Source: an uncultured Alphaproteobacteria bacterium (GTDB lineage: Bacteria > Pseudomonadota > Alphaproteobacteria > RF32 > CAG-239). From it: 64,000 nucleotides of DNA. The notes below the pieces were generated by a model. It saw nothing but the letters and a program-made list of their open reading frames with translations, had not been told where the DNA came from and searched no databases. A program made the translations under genes and the position numbers. Below are positions 32,949 through 35,966 of this stretch, in pieces. Location: the NCBI GenBank assembly GCA_910585375.1, contig CAJUCZ010000002.1:43285-107284 (forward strand). Direction: 5' to 3'. Each line of letters starts with the position of its first letter. Positions within the stretch are counted from its first letter, which is position 1.

Positions 32949-34538
32949 CTATCTTCCGCGGGCATCGTACATTGCCAGCCTCAAATTATTATCTTGCTGC
33001 AACGTTGCCACAAACTTCCCTTTAAATTTGCCGGCTCGGTTCATCAGCCCGTTGTAATCATTTGTTTTTTCTCCGCCCCTTTTATGATGCTTATTAATAA
33101 AGTCAATCCGCGCTTTAACCATATGATCATAAAAATACTGCTCGTTTTTCGCTTTGCCGGCAATACCGTTCGCCAGTTCCACAATTTTGTCCGTCCGTCG
33201 CACGTTCTTGCGTCCTCTGGCCTCATAAATTCCGTTGGCAATAATCTGTGACGCCGTCTTTGACGAATGGTTCACGCGAATGTCAAACAGCAATAAGGCA
33301 ATGCTCTCATTTTTAAAATCGCCGATTCTGTAATAATCATAAAAATCTTTTTTATAAATAAGCTCGCATTGCTCTTTATTCAGATTCTTAATATTTCCGG
33401 CAGTCGGGAAATCAAGTTCTTCCGCCAGTTTTTTATTATTCTTCCAAAAATTCTTTAAGGTAATGCTGGTAATTCCCATTTGGGTCGGATAATCCCATGA
33501 CACATTGCGATAACCGCCCTCATGTTTGAATACAACTCCCATAAAACGTTGAAATTTTTCATCATCCAACCCGTATTCCGCACGGATTTTTTGCGGCAGC
33601 TTTCCTTTTTTTACGGCTGTTTTTTCCAATGTTTTCTCTTTAATGCCGACTTTGATCTGCTCCGCTTTTTCACTTACCGCAATTCTTTTCTCCGACACAA
33701 CCTTTTTCTTTGCCTGCACCTTCCTTTGTCCTTCAACCGGCTTAATCACCTCGGGCATAACGGCCGCTTTCATCTCCCTGGCATCAACTTCCGCTTTCGA
33801 AAGCTTTTCAGTCTTGTCTTTTGCCTTTTCCTTTTGCTTTTCCTGCAGCTGCTGATGAGCATACAAGCCGCCGGTCAGGGTTAATGTTGTCAGGGCTGCC
33901 CCGACAACAGCTTTTCTGGAAGCCTGACAAAACCGATCAGCCCCGATTCTGATGCGATGAGCTTTATCAGCTCGCTGTAACAAAATTTTTGCCCCGTTGT
34001 AAGCGGACTTCGCCCCCTTTGCCATAAAAGCGCCAAACGCTGCCGCCTTATCTTTAGCTTTTTCCCAAAGATAACGGTTGTAAACGTCTTCCATATTCTC
34101 AATATTGTCCAAACCGAGTTCGGTCAGCCGCCCCTGCCCGATACCGCATTCGTTAAGCTTTTGCATATAAGCTGCAGCCCGCCGATAATCCCGATACGCC
34201 GACCGCATAATTCCGTCCGCAATATCGCAGTCTTTTTTATCGCTGTCCCGTTCGTCAAACGGCACCACGAAAGTCCCGCCGTTAAACACGATTTTACGCG
34301 GTTGAAGCCCGGCGTCTTTATAACGCGCGATATCCCGATACTGACGGCTGAAATAATCACGGACAAACTTCTTTTTTGCCTCACCTGCTTCTAAAGAACT
34401 TCTGATATAAAAACACGGAATAATAACCGGCCGGTTATCAATTGTCATAACCTGCGGCGTCATATTAAAACCGGCATATTCCCGTTTTAAAAAACGAAAT
34501 ACGGCATCATTCGGAAGGTTATCGGCATTCTTGCTCAT
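32949..34538 (-). CDS. Membrane-anchored protein with C-terminal GH108 lysozyme-like (peptidoglycan-binding) domain and a novel ~220-aa N-terminal domain
   Basis: C-terminal VFKHEGGYRNVSWDYPTQMGIT resembles the GH108 N-terminal signature; one central TM AVVGAALTTLTLTGGLYA; K-rich coiled linker. Start moved to MSKNADN (GGAGA RBS); a TATAAT lies upstream in what the track translated. Confidence 0.5.
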   Translation of the reverse strand: MSKNADNLPNDAVFRFLKREYAGFNMTPQVMTIDNRPVIIPCFYIRSSLEAGEAKKKFVRDYFSRQYRDIARYKDAGLQPRKIVFNGGTFVVPFDERDSDKKDCDIADGIMRSAYRDYRRAAAYMQKLNECGIGQGRLTELGLDNIENMEDVYNRYLWEKAKDKAAAFGAFMAKGAKSAYNGAKILLQRADKAHRIRIGADRFCQASRKAVVGAALTTLTLTGGLYAHQQLQEKQKEKAKDKTEKLSKAEVDAREMKAAVMPEVIKPVEGQRKVQAKKKVVSEKRIAVSEKAEQIKVGIKEKTLEKTAVKKGKLPQKIRAEYGLDDEKFQRFMGVVFKHEGGYRNVSWDYPTQMGITSITLKNFWKNNKKLAEELDFPTAGNIKNLNKEQCELIYKKDFYDYYRIGDFKNESIALLLFDIRVNHSSKTASQIIANGIYEARGRKNVRRTDKIVELANGIAGKAKNEQYFYDHMVKARIDFINKHHKRGGEKTNDYNGLMNRAGKFKGKFVATLQQDNNLRLAMYDARGR

Positions 34539-34633
34539 GGAACTGTCTCCGCTATATACTTTAGCAGTATTATAACAAAGACCGGCCATGGAATCAATAA
34601 AAAAGGGCTGCCGGAAAGACAGCCCCCGTTTTT

Positions 34634-34924
34634 TTACTCTTCAAAACGGTCAAACAACATTTTCAGCTCTTCGATTTTTTCCGTTTTAGCTTGTTCATTG
34701 TCAAAAGACTGGGCAACGCAAGACTGCAAATGGCGTTTAAGAATATTCCCCTCTACTGCCCTGATTGCAGAACGAACAGCTTTAAGCTGAATCAAAATCT
34801 CGGGACAATACCGGTTTTCCGCAATCATCTTTTTCACGCCTTCCAATTGTCCGATCACACGATTCAGGCGCGGAACCTCTGTCTCATGGCATGGCGGATC
34901 CGGCAAATTTTGTTCGTTGCTCAT
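34634..34924 (-). CDS. CsoR/RcnR/FrmR-family metal-sensing transcriptional repressor (Cys-His-Cys type, CsoR-like)
   Basis: 96 aa DUF156 fold with conserved Cys (RYCPEIL) and HLQSC ligands. Confidence 0.75.
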   Translation of the reverse strand: MSNEQNLPDPPCHETEVPRLNRVIGQLEGVKKMIAENRYCPEILIQLKAVRSAIRAVEGNILKRHLQSCVAQSFDNEQAKTEKIEELKMLFDRFEE

Positions 34925-34935
34925 AACCTTGCCCC

Positions 34936-35115
34936 TTATTTGCAGTTACATTTGTCACTGCATTTATGCGTCTCGTTACATTGACAATCGTCTCCGCAGG
35001 TACAATGCTCATTGCATCCGCAATTCTCGCCGCATTGGTGCGTTTCGTCACATTTGCAGTTCTCTCCGCAGGTACAATTCGGATTCTTGCATTTAGGATT
35101 GTTGCAGTTTCTCAT
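34936..35115 (-). CDS. Metallothionein-like Cys-rich small protein (59 aa, 16 Cys), not in ORF track
   Basis: Translates to MRNCNNPKCKNPNCTCGENCKCDETHQCGENCGCNEHCTCGDDCQCNETHKCSDKCNCK; RBS aaggagaaagta before the ATG; 11 nt upstream of the CsoR-like gene on the same strand. Confidence 0.65.
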   Translation of the reverse strand: MRNCNNPKCKNPNCTCGENCKCDETHQCGENCGCNEHCTCGDDCQCNETHKCSDKCNCK

Positions 35116-35130
35116 TACTTTCTCCTTTCA

Positions 35131-35172
35131 ATACCCCCTATGGGTAAATTCAATATACCCTGTTGGGGTATA
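35131..35172. promoter_or_regulatory. Two CsoR-type operator palindromes (ATACCCcctatGGGTA and TATACCCtgttgGGGTATA) upstream of the metallothionein-like gene
   Basis: The second has perfect 7-bp arms, TACCC...GGGTA-type as in known CsoR operators. Located in the divergent intergenic region with the pirin gene. Confidence 0.55.
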
Positions 35173-35258
35173 AAAGTCAATAGCCTTTAAGCACTATAAA
35201 ACTTGAAAGCTCAGACCCCAGACATATATCCGAAAGAAATACAATCAGGAGAAAAAAA

Positions 35259-35966
35259 ATGCATTTTTTAAGACCGGCGGCGGAACGCGGCCAGACCCGG
35301 ACCAAATGGCTGAACAGTTATCATACTTTTTCATTCGGCAACTATTATGACCCGCAATTTATGGGTTTCAGTGATCTCAGAGTCATTAATGACGACATTG
35401 TCGAACCAGCCCGCGGTTTTGACATGCACCCGCACAATAACATGGAAATCATCAGCATTGTTTTGAGCGGAGAACTGGAACATAAAGACAGTATGGGAAA
35501 CGGTTCCGTCATCCGTGCGGGCGAAATACAAAAAATGACGGCCGGCAGCGGCATCCTGCACAGCGAATTCAATCCCTCTGACAAAGAACAGGTACACTTT
35601 CTGCAAATTTGGATCATGCCGGATTTGAGAGACCTGCGCCCCGATTATCTGCAAAAGAAATTTTCGGAAAAAGAACTGAAAAACCGCCTGCACCTGATTG
35701 TCTCGCCTGACGGCGCCGACGATTCAATCCAAATTCATCAAAATGCCGAAATTTATCAAAGCCTGCTCGATGCCGGCCAAACGGTAAAATATAAAATTTC
35801 CGCAAATCGTGCCGTTTGGCTCCAAATCGCCGCAGGTTCCGTCACCTTGAATAATACGCCGCTGGTAGCCGGCGACGGTTATGCCCTATGGAACGAAGAT
35901 ACGGAAATAGAACTCCGCGGCATTGACAACCAAAGCAACATCTTGTTGTTCAACCTGAGCAAATAA
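35259..35966 (+). CDS. Pirin-family protein (cupin, quercetin 2,3-dioxygenase-like)
   Basis: FDMHPHNNMEIISIVLSGELEH metal-binding motif. Confidence 0.85.
   Translation: MHFLRPAAERGQTRTKWLNSYHTFSFGNYYDPQFMGFSDLRVINDDIVEPARGFDMHPHNNMEIISIVLSGELEHKDSMGNGSVIRAGEIQKMTAGSGILHSEFNPSDKEQVHFLQIWIMPDLRDLRPDYLQKKFSEKELKNRLHLIVSPDGADDSIQIHQNAEIYQSLLDAGQTVKYKISANRAVWLQIAAGSVTLNNTPLVAGDGYALWNEDTEIELRGIDNQSNILLFNLSK

What the first reader, a model, noticed from the sequence alone, without database searches (positions are those of the whole stretch)
34634..35175. Unannotated metallothionein-like ORF in an operon with a CsoR-family repressor and two CsoR-type operators
A 59-aa ORF with 16 Cys, arranged in repeated C-x-C-G-E/D-N/D-C modules, lies 11 nt upstream of a Cys-His-Cys CsoR-like repressor on the minus strand; it is below the ORF-track cutoff. 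Its promoter region carries two palindromes of the TACCC-N-GGGTA type (ATACCCcctatGGGTA and TATACCCtgttgGGGTATA) that resemble known CsoR operators. This fits a self-regulated copper or metal-responsive metallothionein module. Bacterial metallothioneins are rare and sporadically distributed, so this is worth confirming. The plus-strand track ORF 34966..35190 is its shadow.
Basis: partly seen in the sequence, partly recalled or inferred. Interest (0 to 1): 0.7.

Follow-up and report, generated by a model that had tools for sequence, protein, structure and literature searches.

The report
Overlooked bacterial metallothionein with its copper sensor
A tiny, unannotated gene for a protein that is over a quarter cysteine sits in one operon with a CsoR-type metal sensor that most likely switches it on when copper rises; it represents a metallothionein family found across uncultured gut bacteria that gene finders routinely miss.

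Summary
The ORF at 34936..35115 (-) encodes 59 aa with 16 Cys. It ends 11 nt before a CsoR-family gene (34634..34924). It is preceded by a sigma-70-like promoter interlocked with two TACCC-N5-GGGTA palindromes, the only two in 64 kb (0.08 expected).

Against close relatives the Cys frame shows 16-24 synonymous vs 3-8 non-synonymous codon changes; the plus-strand shadow ORF shows 1-2 vs 18-30.

The pairing is conserved in both directions. 74 of 79 assessable CsoR-anchored genome loci carry a Cys-rich module upstream, and 60 of 77 peptide-anchored metagenome loci carry CsoR downstream. The operators are conserved in front of it.

The peptide family (28% Cys, almost no aromatic or hydrophobic residues) matches no Pfam or NCBIfam model above threshold and is unrelated to SmtA/BmtA or MymT. 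It is unnamed in databases and often mis-called as a false N-terminal extension of CsoR.

Copper is the most likely metal but is not proven. Supporting it are the x-C-H-C ligands, the second-shell Tyr, a RicR-like operator and copper genes beside the nearest homologues. The closest analogue is RicR-MymT of M. tuberculosis. I rate it a new variant of a known kind, of moderately high interest.

The parts
35175..35180 (-). -35 hexamer TTGACT of the operon promoter
   Evidence: Consensus scan, 10 of 12 matches with a 17-nt spacer. Invariant in 10 aligned relatives.
35154..35172 (-). Operator O1, palindrome TATACCCCAACAGGGTATA (core TACCC-N5-GGGTA at 35156-35170). It fills the -35/-10 spacer, and its 3' arm supplies the -10.
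   Evidence: Conserved position in relatives. Half-sites match the published RicR operator.
35152..35157 (-). -10 hexamer TATATT, overlapping the 3' arm of O1
35131..35147 (-). Operator O2, palindrome TTACCCATAGGGGGTAT (core at 35132-35146), 24 bp centre-to-centre from O1. It covers the inferred transcription start region.
   Evidence: The TACC...GGGGGTAT core is invariant in 10 relatives. The transcription start position is inferred, not measured.
35122..35127 (-). Shine-Dalgarno AAGGAG, 6 nt before the ATG of the Cys-rich ORF
   Evidence: Read directly from the sequence. Conserved in alignment A3.
34936..35115 (-). Metallothionein-like gene: 59 aa, 16 Cys, 3 His. An N-terminal CxNPxC motif is followed by two 24-aa seven-Cys repeats.
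   Evidence: Purifying selection in this frame only. Family conserved upstream of CsoR.
34925..34935 (-). 11-nt intergenic spacer GGGGCAAGGTT. A purine-rich AAGGGG that overlaps the stop codon could act as the ribosome-binding site for csoR.
   Evidence: Read directly from the sequence. Translational coupling is inferred.
34634..34924 (-). CsoR-family repressor gene, 96 aa. Ligand candidates are Cys40, His65 and Cys69; second-shell Tyr39; N-terminal Pro11-x-His13 motif invariant in the clade.
   Evidence: Pfam PF02583 at 88.8 bits. Best NCBIfam hit is RicR, below cutoff. PDB matches GtCsoR 4m1p at 1.2e-14 and InrS 5fmn at 7.7e-14. Clade alignment A1.
34603..34627 (-). Intrinsic terminator, a 10-bp stem (6 GC pairs) followed by a T-run. 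It ends the bicistronic operon.
   Evidence: The next gene (GH108 protein, 32949..34589) has its own promoter-like site at 34597..34569.

Best explanation
This is a two-gene operon, promoter/O1/O2 then mt then csoR then terminator. It encodes a cytosolic metallothionein-type metal-thiolate protein together with its own CsoR-type repressor.

Proposed mechanism. With little free Cu(I), apo-CsoR tetramers occupy the two TACCC-N5-GGGTA operators. O1 overlaps the spacer and the -10, and O2 covers the transcription start region, so RNA polymerase is blocked. When cytosolic Cu(I) rises, it binds the inter-subunit Cys40/His65'/Cys69' site, helped by the Tyr39 second-shell network, and CsoR leaves the DNA. 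The bicistronic mRNA is then made. The 59-aa protein, with 16 Cys in CxC modules and no autonomous fold, sequesters Cu(I) in thiolate clusters. I estimate roughly 8-10 Cu(I) by analogy with other metallothioneins. Newly made CsoR re-represses once the metallothionein has pulled free Cu(I) below the sensor's set point, which makes the buffer self-limiting.

In this gut-bacterial clade the metallothionein, and not a CopA/CopZ efflux pair, is the sensor's principal linked output.

Shown here: the gene is real and under purifying selection; the operon anatomy; the conservation of the mt-csoR pairing and of the operators; the CsoR ligand residues.

Inferred: DNA binding by this CsoR, derepression by metal, the identity of the metal, metal binding by the peptide and its stoichiometry.
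For: Gene reality. Between the window and L001, differences by codon position are 1/1/18, giving 16 synonymous against 3 non-synonymous codon changes. Six further relatives behave the same way. All 16 Cys are conserved in the seven relatives compared codon by codon.

Operon anatomy. Promoter, Shine-Dalgarno, 11-nt gap and terminator are all present.

Operators. They are the only 2 sites in 64 kb against 0.08 expected. Across 593 kb of related loci there are 75 strict sites, and 63 of them lie within 200 nt upstream of the called start. Most of the remainder trace to over-called start codons or to Cys-rich ORFs that the first census missed. The -35, O1/-10, O2 and Shine-Dalgarno are invariant while upstream DNA diverges.

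Association. 74 of 79 CsoR-anchored loci carry a Cys-rich module upstream. 60 of 77 peptide-anchored metagenome loci carry CsoR downstream. In-frame fusions of the module to CsoR exist (L045, P0080, P0155).

Metallothionein character. The family is 27.9% Cys and rich in K, N, G, E and D, with about 0.1% Tyr and no Phe or Trp. AlphaFold gives pLDDT 58 and no secondary structure. The only weak similarities are to metallothionein families: Pfam Metallothio_5, snail Cd-MT 6qk5 and sea-urchin MT 1qjl.

Copper.
- The C-H-C ligands align with GtCsoR.
- The RYC tyrosine matches Cu-sensing CsoR, where InrS has RPC and CstR has RDC. Tyr35/Glu81 are described as nearly invariant in bona fide Cu sensors (PMC8643695).
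- The best NCBIfam hit is RicR.
- The operator half-sites equal the RicR operator.
- The closest curated homologues sit beside a copper-translocating ATPase and four-helix-bundle copper-binding proteins. The Legionella one shares the PxH motif and has a TACCCATGAGGGTA operator.
- The ATPase beside the L077 CsoR passes the copper subfamily model TIGR01511 (581 bits against a cutoff of 397).
Against: There are no expression, DNA-binding or metal-binding data of any kind.

Sequence similarity to the Ni(II) sensor InrS is nearly as strong as to CsoR (7.7e-14 against 1.2e-14). The clade also has an invariant N-terminal His13 that could in principle act as a fourth ligand.

One locus (L025) places a CDF divalent-cation exporter between the metallothionein gene and csoR. 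Three loci have a Cd/Zn-type P1B ATPase about 2 kb away.

The Cys spacing most resembles the divalent-metal M3Cys9 beta-domains of invertebrate metallothioneins, although the E-values are not significant.

No CopA or CopZ is present anywhere in the 64-kb window. That departs from the usual neighbourhood of Cu-sensing CsoRs.

19 of the 62 loci with a Cys-rich ORF in the first census lack a perfect-match operator under my strict pattern.
Confidence: 0.72

Rival explanations
1. The cassette has the same architecture, but the sensor responds to and the peptide buffers a divalent metal (Zn, Cd, Ni or Co). It would then be an InrS/NcrB-like H-C-H-C sensor controlling a Zn/Cd-thionein.
For: InrS is nearly as good a structural-sequence match as CsoR. 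His13 is invariant in the clade. L025 inserts a His-rich CDF exporter (PF01545) between the metallothionein gene and csoR. Cd/Zn-type ATPases lie about 2 kb away in L024, L027 and L080. The peptide contains His, and its Cys pattern resembles Cd/Zn metallothionein beta-domains.
Against: Tyr39 in RYC is the Cu-sensor second-shell residue and is absent from InrS (RPC). His13 does not fall at the W position by linear alignment, being about 5 residues off. The same PxH motif occurs in a Legionella homologue that heads a copper-ATPase operon. The nearest curated homologues and L077 are linked to copper genes. The Cd/Zn ATPases have no operator and may simply be syntenic. His is not conserved across the peptide family, ranging from 0 to 5 per member.
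Confidence: 0.17
2. The peptide is a thiol-rich sink for reactive sulfur or oxidants, and the regulator is a CstR-like persulfide or redox sensor and not a metal sensor. This could be relevant in the sulfide-rich gut.
For: The CsoR family includes dithiol persulfide sensors with the same two Cys. The habitat is the animal gut.
Against: CstRs are x-C-x-C and lack the Y-position His. Here His65 is nearly invariant and Tyr39 is invariant. No sulfide-oxidation genes (rhodanese, persulfide dioxygenase, CoA-persulfide reductase) were seen beside the cassette in the loci whose neighbouring ORFs I inspected, although this was not screened systematically. The operator is of the RicR/CsoR type.
Confidence: 0.05
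3. The Cys-rich ORF is a regulatory leader or upstream ORF whose translation (for example sensing Cys-tRNA supply) tunes csoR expression. Alternatively it is a precursor of a modified or secreted Cys-rich peptide. In either case it would not be a metal-binding protein.
For: It is very short, sits directly upstream of csoR with an 11-nt gap, and is extremely Cys-rich.
Against: Purifying selection also acts on non-Cys residues (G, N, P, D/E) and on exact Cys spacing across phyla. The module also occurs fused in-frame to CsoR and to a SnoaL-like domain, and in 142-329-aa multi-repeat proteins. That behaviour fits a folded functional domain and not a leader. There is no signal peptide and no radical-SAM or other maturation gene nearby. 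In several loci the gap to csoR is 450-1660 nt with another gene in between.
Confidence: 0.04
4. The ORF is a chance or shadow ORF, and the real feature is on the plus strand (34966..35190).
For: A 74-aa ORF is open on the plus strand and remains open in relatives.
Against: In that frame, differences between relatives are 1-3 synonymous against 18-34 non-synonymous, while the Cys frame shows 16-24 against 3-16. It has no Pfam hit. Promoter, Shine-Dalgarno and operators are oriented for the minus strand.
Confidence: 0.01

Closest known systems
RicR-MymT of Mycobacterium tuberculosis (a CsoR paralogue repressing a Cu(I) metallothionein)
   Same: A CsoR-family x-C-H-C repressor controls a small Cys-rich cytosolic protein and its own gene through a TACCC-Nx-GGGTA palindrome in the promoter. 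The published ricR operator is TACCCCGCTGGGTA (PMC3944814). RicR is the best NCBIfam hit for the window repressor.
   Different: Here the metallothionein gene and the repressor gene are co-transcribed, with the metallothionein first, whereas mymT and ricR are separate loci of a five-locus regulon. The operator spacer is 5 nt, not 4. The repressor scores 58 bits against the 175-bit RicR cutoff, so it is not a RicR orthologue. The host is a Gram-negative gut lineage.
CsoR-controlled Csp3/Ccsp cytosolic copper storage proteins (four-helix bundles, e.g. Streptomyces lividans; review PMC11672702)
   Same: A Cys-rich cytosolic Cu(I) store is placed under, or next to, a Cu-sensing repressor. The nearest curated homologues of this CsoR on Criblamydia and Legionella plasmids do sit near 'four-helix bundle copper-binding protein' genes.
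   Different: Csp proteins are folded four-helix bundles of about 120 aa. This peptide is 59 aa, predicted to have no helices (pLDDT 58), and has metallothionein-style CxC spacing. It has no Pfam hit to any Csp-type domain.
SmtB-SmtA / BmtA family (Pfam PF02069, cyanobacteria and Pseudomonas)
   Same: A bacterial metallothionein is paired with a dedicated metal-sensing repressor next to it.
   Different: That repressor belongs to the ArsR/SmtB family, not the CsoR family. SmtA-type proteins have about 16% Cys, a zinc-finger-like fold and hydrophobic residues. The family here has 28% Cys and essentially no hydrophobic or aromatic residues. It has no PF02069 hit at E<=1, and hhalign probability is 2.3%.
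Eukaryotic metallothionein beta-type domains (snail Cd-MT 6qk5, sea-urchin MTA 1qjl, Diptera Pfam PF02067)
   Same: The composition is the same, and so is the local Cys spacing C-x-C-x2-C-x-CG-x2-C-x-C with about 9 Cys in roughly 28 residues. These are the only database similarities found. Eukaryote-looking multi-repeat proteins with a related NPxCxCxxCxCGxxCxCG module were recovered by the profile.
   Different: All scores are below significance or family thresholds: 18.2 bits against GA 25, and PDB E-values of 0.08 and 0.56. Common ancestry cannot be separated from convergence in low-complexity Cys-rich sequence. The N-terminal C-x-NP-x-C signature and the linkage to CsoR are bacterial features.
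Canonical csoR-copZ-copA copper efflux operons
   Same: The same repressor family, ligand set and operator type, with autoregulation. One distant member of this clade (L077, an Akkermansia MAG) and the Legionella plasmid homologue have exactly this arrangement.
   Different: In the window and in 74 of 79 related loci the linked gene is a sequestering protein, not an exporter or chaperone. No P-type ATPase or HMA-domain gene exists in the 64-kb window.

Membership tests
CsoR/RcnR superfamily (Pfam PF02583) | Match to the family HMM above the gathering threshold; an all-alpha protomer of about 90 residues | tested here: met
   88.8 bits against GA 22.8, residues 18-92. Nine PDB family members matched.
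Cu(I)-sensing CsoR (SSN clusters 1/23 sensu PMC8643695) | X-Y-Z = Cys-His-Cys first-shell ligands | tested here: met
   Cys40, His65 and Cys69 have the 25/4 spacing and align with the ligand columns of GtCsoR 4m1p. C40 and C69 are invariant and H65 is at least 90% conserved across 26 clade members.
Cu(I)-sensing CsoR (SSN clusters 1/23 sensu PMC8643695) | Second-shell Tyr (MtCsoR Tyr35) directly before the X Cys, and Glu (Glu81) in helix 3 | tested here: met
   Tyr39 (RYC) is invariant and is shared with GtCsoR (RYC) but not with InrS (RPC) or CstR (RDC). A nearly invariant Glu86 lies 17 residues after Cys69, against 16 in MtCsoR. The Tyr criterion is clearly met; the Glu is probably met but its register is uncertain.
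Cu(I)-sensing CsoR (SSN clusters 1/23 sensu PMC8643695) | No conserved N-terminal 'W' metal ligand (x-C-H-C, not H-C-H-C) | tested here: inconclusive
   An invariant Pro11-x-His13 exists. By ungapped extrapolation it is about 5 residues from the InrS His21 / RcnR His3 position. The same motif occurs in a Legionella homologue heading a copper-ATPase operon.
Cu(I)-sensing CsoR (SSN clusters 1/23 sensu PMC8643695) | Genomic neighbourhood encodes CopA and/or CopZ | tested here: not met
   The 64-kb window contains no DKTGT P-type ATPase and no MxCxxC domain. Only 1 of 80 loci (L077) is csoR-copA. The feature is met only for more distant homologues.
Cu(I)-sensing CsoR (SSN clusters 1/23 sensu PMC8643695) | Cu(I) binding that releases the repressor from a GC-tract inverted-repeat operator | not testable with these tools
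   Operator sequences of the right type are present and conserved. Binding and release need EMSA or anisotropy with Cu(I).
RicR (NCBIfam NF052430) | Score above the curated cutoff for the RicR model | tested here: not met
   58.2 bits against a cutoff of 175. It is the best hit, but the protein is not an orthologue.
Metallothionein (operational definition: small, very Cys-rich, CxC/CxxC motifs, few or no aromatic residues, metal-thiolate clusters) | Size, Cys content, motif pattern, lack of aromatic and hydrophobic residues | tested here: met
   59 aa with 27% Cys. The family averages 27.9% Cys, about 0.1% Tyr and no Phe or Trp. There are CxC motifs throughout and no autonomous fold is predicted.
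Metallothionein (operational definition: small, very Cys-rich, CxC/CxxC motifs, few or no aromatic residues, metal-thiolate clusters) | Binds several metal ions in thiolate clusters | not testable with these tools
   This requires expression, ESI-MS metal stoichiometry and UV/CD/luminescence of the Cu(I) or Zn/Cd forms.
SmtA/BmtA bacterial metallothionein (Pfam PF02069) | Match to the PF02069 HMM; zinc-finger-like fold with conserved aromatic and His residues | tested here: not met
   No PF02069 hit at E<=1 for the window peptide or for any of 30 family members.
MymT mycobacterial metallothionein | Sequence homology to MymT | tested here: not met
No NCBIfam hit.
Eukaryotic metallothionein families in Pfam (PF02067 Metallothio_5, PF05522, PF02068) | Score at or above the gathering threshold | tested here: not met
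   The best is PF02067 at 18.2 bits against GA 25. 12 of 30 members give sub-threshold hits.
Csp copper storage proteins | Four-helix bundle with Cys lining the core | tested here: not met
   The model has no helices of 4 or more residues and pLDDT 58. No Pfam domain is found. At 59 aa it is too short for the fold.

The most novel reading that the evidence does not exclude
This is a third, previously undescribed family of bacterial metallothioneins. It is eukaryote-like in composition and Cys spacing and carries a diagnostic N-terminal C-x-NP-x-C-x-C-x2-C-x-CG-(D/E)-x-C-x-C signature. Together with a dedicated CsoR it forms a compact, self-contained 'sense-and-sequester' copper cassette. The cassette is shared by phylogenetically distant uncultured animal-gut lineages (RF32-like Alphaproteobacteria, Gastranaerophilales/Melainabacteria, Elusimicrobia and others), where it takes the place of efflux genes as the output linked to the sensor. 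Natural fusions of the module to CsoR suggest direct Cu(I) exchange between buffer and sensor. The family is almost invisible in protein databases because gene callers skip it or read it in the wrong frame.
Probability: 0.5. Interest if true: 0.75.

Novelty: new variant of a known kind. Interest (0 to 1): 0.63.

Why it matters
According to the papers searched, only two kinds of bacterial metallothionein have been studied functionally: SmtA/BmtA and MymT. A third family would widen the known repertoire of bacterial metal buffering. It is unrelated in sequence, far richer in Cys, and hard-wired to a CsoR sensor.

It would also give a testable handle on copper handling in uncultured, small-genome gut bacteria (RF32-type Alphaproteobacteria, Melainabacteria). 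Dietary and host copper are selective forces in that habitat, and these bacteria apparently pair their sensor with sequestration and not with export.

The compact promoter-operator-metallothionein-repressor unit is also a ready-made, self-limiting metal-responsive part for synthetic biology or bioremediation.

The case also exposes a systematic annotation error. A conserved 33-75-aa gene is either missing from, or mis-framed in, databases of billions of proteins. Only 29 of 1.84 billion cluster representatives match, and several 'long CsoR' entries are artefacts.

Tried and rejected
1. Homology to known metallothionein or Cu-storage families. Pfam and NCBIfam scans of the peptide and of 30 family members gave only sub-threshold eukaryotic metallothionein hits. 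hhalign against MymT and SmtA gave 2.3% probability. A PDB profile search gave only non-significant metallothionein hits. Membership of any named family is rejected.

2. The opposite-strand ORF as the real gene: rejected by synonymous/non-synonymous counts in all six frames.

3. A known RNA element in the leader or palindromes. An Rfam E-value scan gave only two chance-level hits over the terminator. Palindrome O1 was flagged as 'terminator-like' by the consensus scan, but it overlaps the -10 and lies upstream of the transcribed region.

4. A mobile-element origin. There is no phage match and no close plasmid match (the best plasmid homologue is 55% identical). The cassette's GC content matches its flanks.

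5. A structure-based assignment. AlphaFold with a 20-sequence alignment gave pLDDT 58 and no secondary structure, so I ran no fold search, because matches to such a model would be meaningless.

6. My first motif-based locator for CsoR failed on most loci and was replaced by tblastn. My first census window of 800 nt, with a Cys-fraction cut, missed L025 and the SnoaL fusions. This was corrected.

7. The 897-aa 'cluster member' P0151 was checked as a possible metallothionein-transporter fusion. It has no Cys-rich module and is a clustering artefact.

8. Literature searches for a prior description (metallothionein + CsoR; bacterial metallothionein + MymT/SmtA; metallothionein + Melainabacteria; prokaryotic metallothionein + new family) found nothing on this family. 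The library lacks most subscription-journal papers, so absence is not proof.
Full report
1. WHAT IS IN THE SEQUENCE

On the minus strand, 34936..35115 encodes MRNCNNPKCKNPNCTCGENCKCDETHQCGENCGCNEHCTCGDDCQCNETHKCSDKCNCK, which is 59 aa with 16 Cys and 3 His. After a 12-residue N-terminus containing C-x-NP-x-C, the protein consists of two 24-residue, seven-Cys repeats. These correspond to a 72-nt tandem duplication in the DNA, 34940-35011 / 35012-35083, 72% identical.

Eleven nucleotides after its stop codon a 96-aa ORF begins (34634..34924). It matches Pfam PF02583, the metal-sensitive repressor (CsoR/RcnR) family, at 88.8 bits against a gathering score of 22.8.

Upstream of the Cys-rich ORF lie:
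- an AAGGAG Shine-Dalgarno (35122-35127);
- a sigma-70-like promoter, TTGACT-17 nt-TATATT, spanning 35180..35152;
- two palindromes, TACCCTGTTGGGGTA at 35156-35170 (O1) and TACCCCCTATGGGTA at 35132-35146 (O2).

The palindromes are 24 bp apart centre to centre. They are the only matches to TACCC-N3-7-GGGTA in 64 kb, where shuffles expect 0.08. O1 fills the promoter spacer and its 3' arm provides the -10. O2 covers the region where transcription should start (inferred).

A 10-bp GC-rich hairpin with a T-run (34603-34627) follows the repressor gene, and the next gene has its own promoter-like site. The anatomy is therefore a bicistronic, terminator-bounded operon.

2. IS THE CYS-RICH ORF A REAL GENE?

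I fetched 80 genome loci through the CsoR homologue and compared the closest ones codon by codon.

Between the window and L001, differences fall 1/1/18 on codon positions 1/2/3, which gives 16 synonymous against 3 non-synonymous codon changes. For L002-L005 the counts are 20-24 against 4-8. In the plus-strand frame of ORF 34966..35190 the same differences score 1-2 synonymous against 18-30 non-synonymous. All 16 Cys are conserved in the seven relatives compared codon by codon. The Cys frame is the coding frame and the plus-strand ORF is its shadow.

3. IS THE PAIRING WITH CsoR MORE THAN LOCAL COINCIDENCE?

Starting from CsoR, a refined census of the 80 loci found a Cys-rich module on the same strand upstream in 74 of the 79 loci that have room for one:
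- 63 are stand-alone ORFs of 33-75 aa, with a median gap to csoR of 62 nt.
- 10 are embedded in longer proteins.
- 1 is an in-frame fusion to CsoR itself (L045, 137 aa).

Starting from the peptide, a scan of metagenome contigs with the peptide alignment returned 80 loci. Of these, 60 have the CsoR homologue directly downstream, 3 run off the contig, and 17 lack it. Most of those 17 are divergent architectures.

Database entries add two further fusions of the module to CsoR, P0080 and P0155. P0024 and P0030 also look fused, but they may be assembly variants of a species in which the genes are separate.

4. ARE THE PALINDROMES OPERATORS?

Across 593 kb of the CsoR-anchored loci there are 75 perfect TACCC-N3-7-GGGTA sites. 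Of these, 63 lie within 200 nt upstream of the called start of the Cys-rich ORF (or of CsoR in loci without one), typically at -16 to -73, and often as a pair 25-34 nt apart. Most of the remaining 12 trace to start codons I had over-called, or to Cys-rich ORFs that my first pass missed.

An alignment of the promoter regions of ten relatives shows a clean footprint. The -35 TTGAC, the O1/-10 composite, O2 (TACC...GGGGGTAT) and the Shine-Dalgarno are invariant or nearly so, and the DNA further upstream diverges freely.

The half-sites are those of the published RicR operator in the M. tuberculosis ricR promoter, TACCCCGCTGGGTA, in which two G-to-T changes were used to reduce repressor binding (PMC3944814). 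A more distant homologue on a Legionella plasmid, which heads a csoR-copA operon, has TACCCATGAGGGTA about 35 nt before its start.

Binding by this particular protein is inferred and has not been shown.

5. WHAT KIND OF PROTEIN IS THE PEPTIDE?

The 58 non-redundant family members are 27.9% Cys and otherwise rich in Lys, Asn, Gly, Glu and Asp. They have about 0.1% Tyr and no Phe or Trp. The conserved signature is M-x-(K/N)-C-x-N-P-x-C-x-C-x2-C-x-C-G-(D/E)-x-C-x-C, followed by a variable number of CxC modules. In the window's subgroup the third Cys is replaced (KCKNPNC).

AlphaFold with a 20-sequence alignment predicts no secondary structure (mean pLDDT 58). That is expected for a protein that folds only around metal clusters.

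This fits the operational definition of a metallothionein, but it belongs to no named family:
- No NCBIfam hit.
- No PF02069 (SmtA/BmtA) hit.
- Only sub-threshold hits to eukaryotic families, the best being PF02067 at 18.2 bits against 25.
- Only non-significant PDB profile hits, to snail Cd-MT 6qk5 (E 0.08) and the sea-urchin MT beta-domain 1qjl (E 0.56), which share the local Cys spacing.

In a 5.8-billion-protein database the family has 43 members, none of them named. An exhaustive HMM search of 1.84 billion cluster representatives found 29.

Much of this invisibility is artefactual. Several database 'CsoR' proteins of 123-154 aa are the true CsoR extended upstream through a wrong frame of the Cys-rich gene.

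6. WHICH METAL?

The clade's repressor has Cys40, His65 and Cys69 at the X, Y and Z positions. It also has Tyr39 directly before Cys40. PMC8643695 describes Tyr35/Glu81 as nearly invariant second-shell residues of bona fide Cu(I) sensors. In the PDB alignments the Cu sensor GtCsoR has RYC, whereas the Ni sensor InrS has RPC and the persulfide sensor CstR has RDC.

Further points in favour of copper:
- The best NCBIfam hit is RicR.
- The nearest homologues in curated records lie beside a heavy-metal or copper-translocating P-type ATPase and 'four-helix bundle copper-binding protein' genes.
- In L077 the ATPase overlapping the end of csoR passes the copper subfamily model TIGR01511 (581 bits against 397) and has the CPC/YN/MxxSS motifs.

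Points against copper:
- Overall similarity to InrS is nearly as strong (7.7e-14 against 1.2e-14).
- The clade has an invariant Pro11-x-His13. However, this is about 5 residues off the W position, and the copper-linked Legionella homologue also has it.
- L025 inserts a CDF exporter between the metallothionein gene and csoR.
- Three loci have a Cd/Zn-type ATPase about 2 kb away, without an operator.
- The window contains no CopA or CopZ.

I put Cu(I) at roughly 0.7 and a divalent metal at under 0.2.

7. MECHANISM PROPOSED

Apo-CsoR occupies O1 and O2 and occludes the promoter. Cu(I) binding releases it. The bicistronic mRNA then yields the thionein, which sequesters Cu(I), and more CsoR, which re-represses once free Cu(I) has been buffered. 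Because buffer and sensor come from one transcript and compete for the same ion, the circuit is self-limiting. The natural module-CsoR fusions fit a close functional coupling.

The anatomy, the conservation and the ligand residues are shown here. DNA binding, metal release and metal sequestration are inferred from the RicR/CsoR and metallothionein precedents.

8. COMPARISON WITH WHAT IS KNOWN, AND NOVELTY

In function the closest system is RicR-MymT. CsoR-linked Csp3 and SmtB-SmtA are looser analogues.

This case differs in several ways:
- The thionein is a distinct, eukaryote-like family.
- It is co-transcribed ahead of its repressor.
- It replaces efflux genes as the linked output.
- It recurs, with 58-93% identical CsoR partners, in uncultured gut Alphaproteobacteria, Gastranaerophilales, Elusimicrobia and others from human, ruminant and other animal guts.

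Recent papers still list only SmtA/BmtA-type and MymT-type bacterial metallothioneins. My searches found no description of this family, with the caveat that the library is incomplete.

I rate it a new variant of a known kind. The regulatory logic has a precedent. The protein family, the operon design and the distribution do not.

9. LIMITS

All the evidence is comparative.
- The related loci are MAG or metagenome contigs, some of them redundant. The 80 peptide-anchored loci contain 43 distinct peptides.
- My strict operator pattern misses one-mismatch sites.
- The MymT and SmtA sequences were recalled from memory.
- The transcription start and the metal stoichiometry are estimates.

Noticed in passing
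Database proteins P0007, P0008, P0009, P0011, P0027, P0028, P0035, P0060, P0070: Public 'CsoR' proteins of 123-154 aa carry false N-terminal extensions such as ...AADATSIVPAAMTAIAMKSINA.... These are the upstream Cys-rich gene read in a wrong frame. It is a systematic gene-calling error that hides the metallothionein gene.
   Followed up: partly
L028:3409-3930, L033, L041-L043, L048:934-1455, L051, L072: A 173-aa protein fuses an 11-Cys metallothionein-like N-terminus (e.g. MTDTKHCCCSSGCQCGDDCQCTEDNKCCPECKCY) to a SnoaL-like domain (PF07366, E about 1e-23). It sits upstream of the CsoR homologue, with paired operators in front in L048. The function of a metallothionein-SnoaL fusion is unknown.
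   Followed up: partly
L045:3848-4261; also P0080 and P0155: These are in-frame fusions of the Cys-rich module to the CsoR domain (137, 127 and 109 aa). In L045 the same N-terminal module as in the SnoaL fusions is joined to CsoR by a His/Asn-rich linker.
   Followed up: partly
L016:3567-3956, L023:1436-1798, L035:3560-3946, L047:1218-1616, L055, L056: A membrane protein of about 80-130 aa lies between the metallothionein gene and csoR. Most copies have an FHFxCCGLP motif in the first helix, internal CC(C) motifs and a His/Met-rich tail (HHHGCH; HDMSSHMEMNMPHN); L023 has FHFVFCGLP, and the motif falls outside the longest ATG-initiated ORF in L055. There is no Pfam hit, only a weak MerT-like NCBIfam hit (18.8 bits, E 1e-3). 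It may be a thiophilic-metal transporter.
   Followed up: partly
L025:96-263 / 649-1818 / 1885-2190: The layout is operator, 55-aa metallothionein gene, His-rich CDF cation-efflux protein (PF01545, E 8e-44), then CsoR. It is the only locus seen with a divalent-cation exporter inside the cassette, and it is the main hint against a purely copper role.
   Followed up: partly
L148, L153, L154 (human-gut metagenome contigs); L058:3529-3966: These are giant Cys-rich proteins built from the same CxCGxxCxC modules: 287-329 aa with 105-118 Cys (no CsoR within about 0.5-2.8 kb downstream), and 142 aa with 46 Cys directly upstream of CsoR with two operators (L058).
   Followed up: no
P0153 (645 aa), P0154 (232 aa), P0161 (374 aa): Eukaryote-looking proteins carry 3-11 tandem copies of a related NPxCxCxxCxCGxGCxCG module. 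In P0153 and P0154 the repeats are attached to a segment with a GAGGLG dinucleotide-binding-type motif that resembles ThiF/MoeB-type enzymes (recalled from memory, not tested). The module type therefore recurs outside bacteria. Homology versus convergence is unresolved.
   Followed up: no
window 35259..35966 (+) and intergenic 35181..35258: A pirin-family gene (PF02678 + PF17954) is transcribed divergently from the cassette. A TTGAAA-16 nt-TATATC promoter-like element for it is conserved in the closest relatives (seen in reverse complement in alignment A3). The operators lie about 30 nt or more upstream of that -35, so co-regulation seems unlikely but was not tested.
   Followed up: partly
window 32949..34589 (-): The 546-aa protein has a C-terminal GH108 lysozyme-like domain (PF05838, residues 352-441) and a long Lys/Glu-rich central region. 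It lies immediately downstream of the cassette terminator and has its own promoter-like site (34597..34569).
   Followed up: no
Cluster of P0114: An unrelated 897-aa protein (P0151) is listed as a member of the 90%-identity cluster of a 45-aa metallothionein-like peptide. It contains no Cys-rich module, so it is a clustering artefact in the protein collection.
   Followed up: yes
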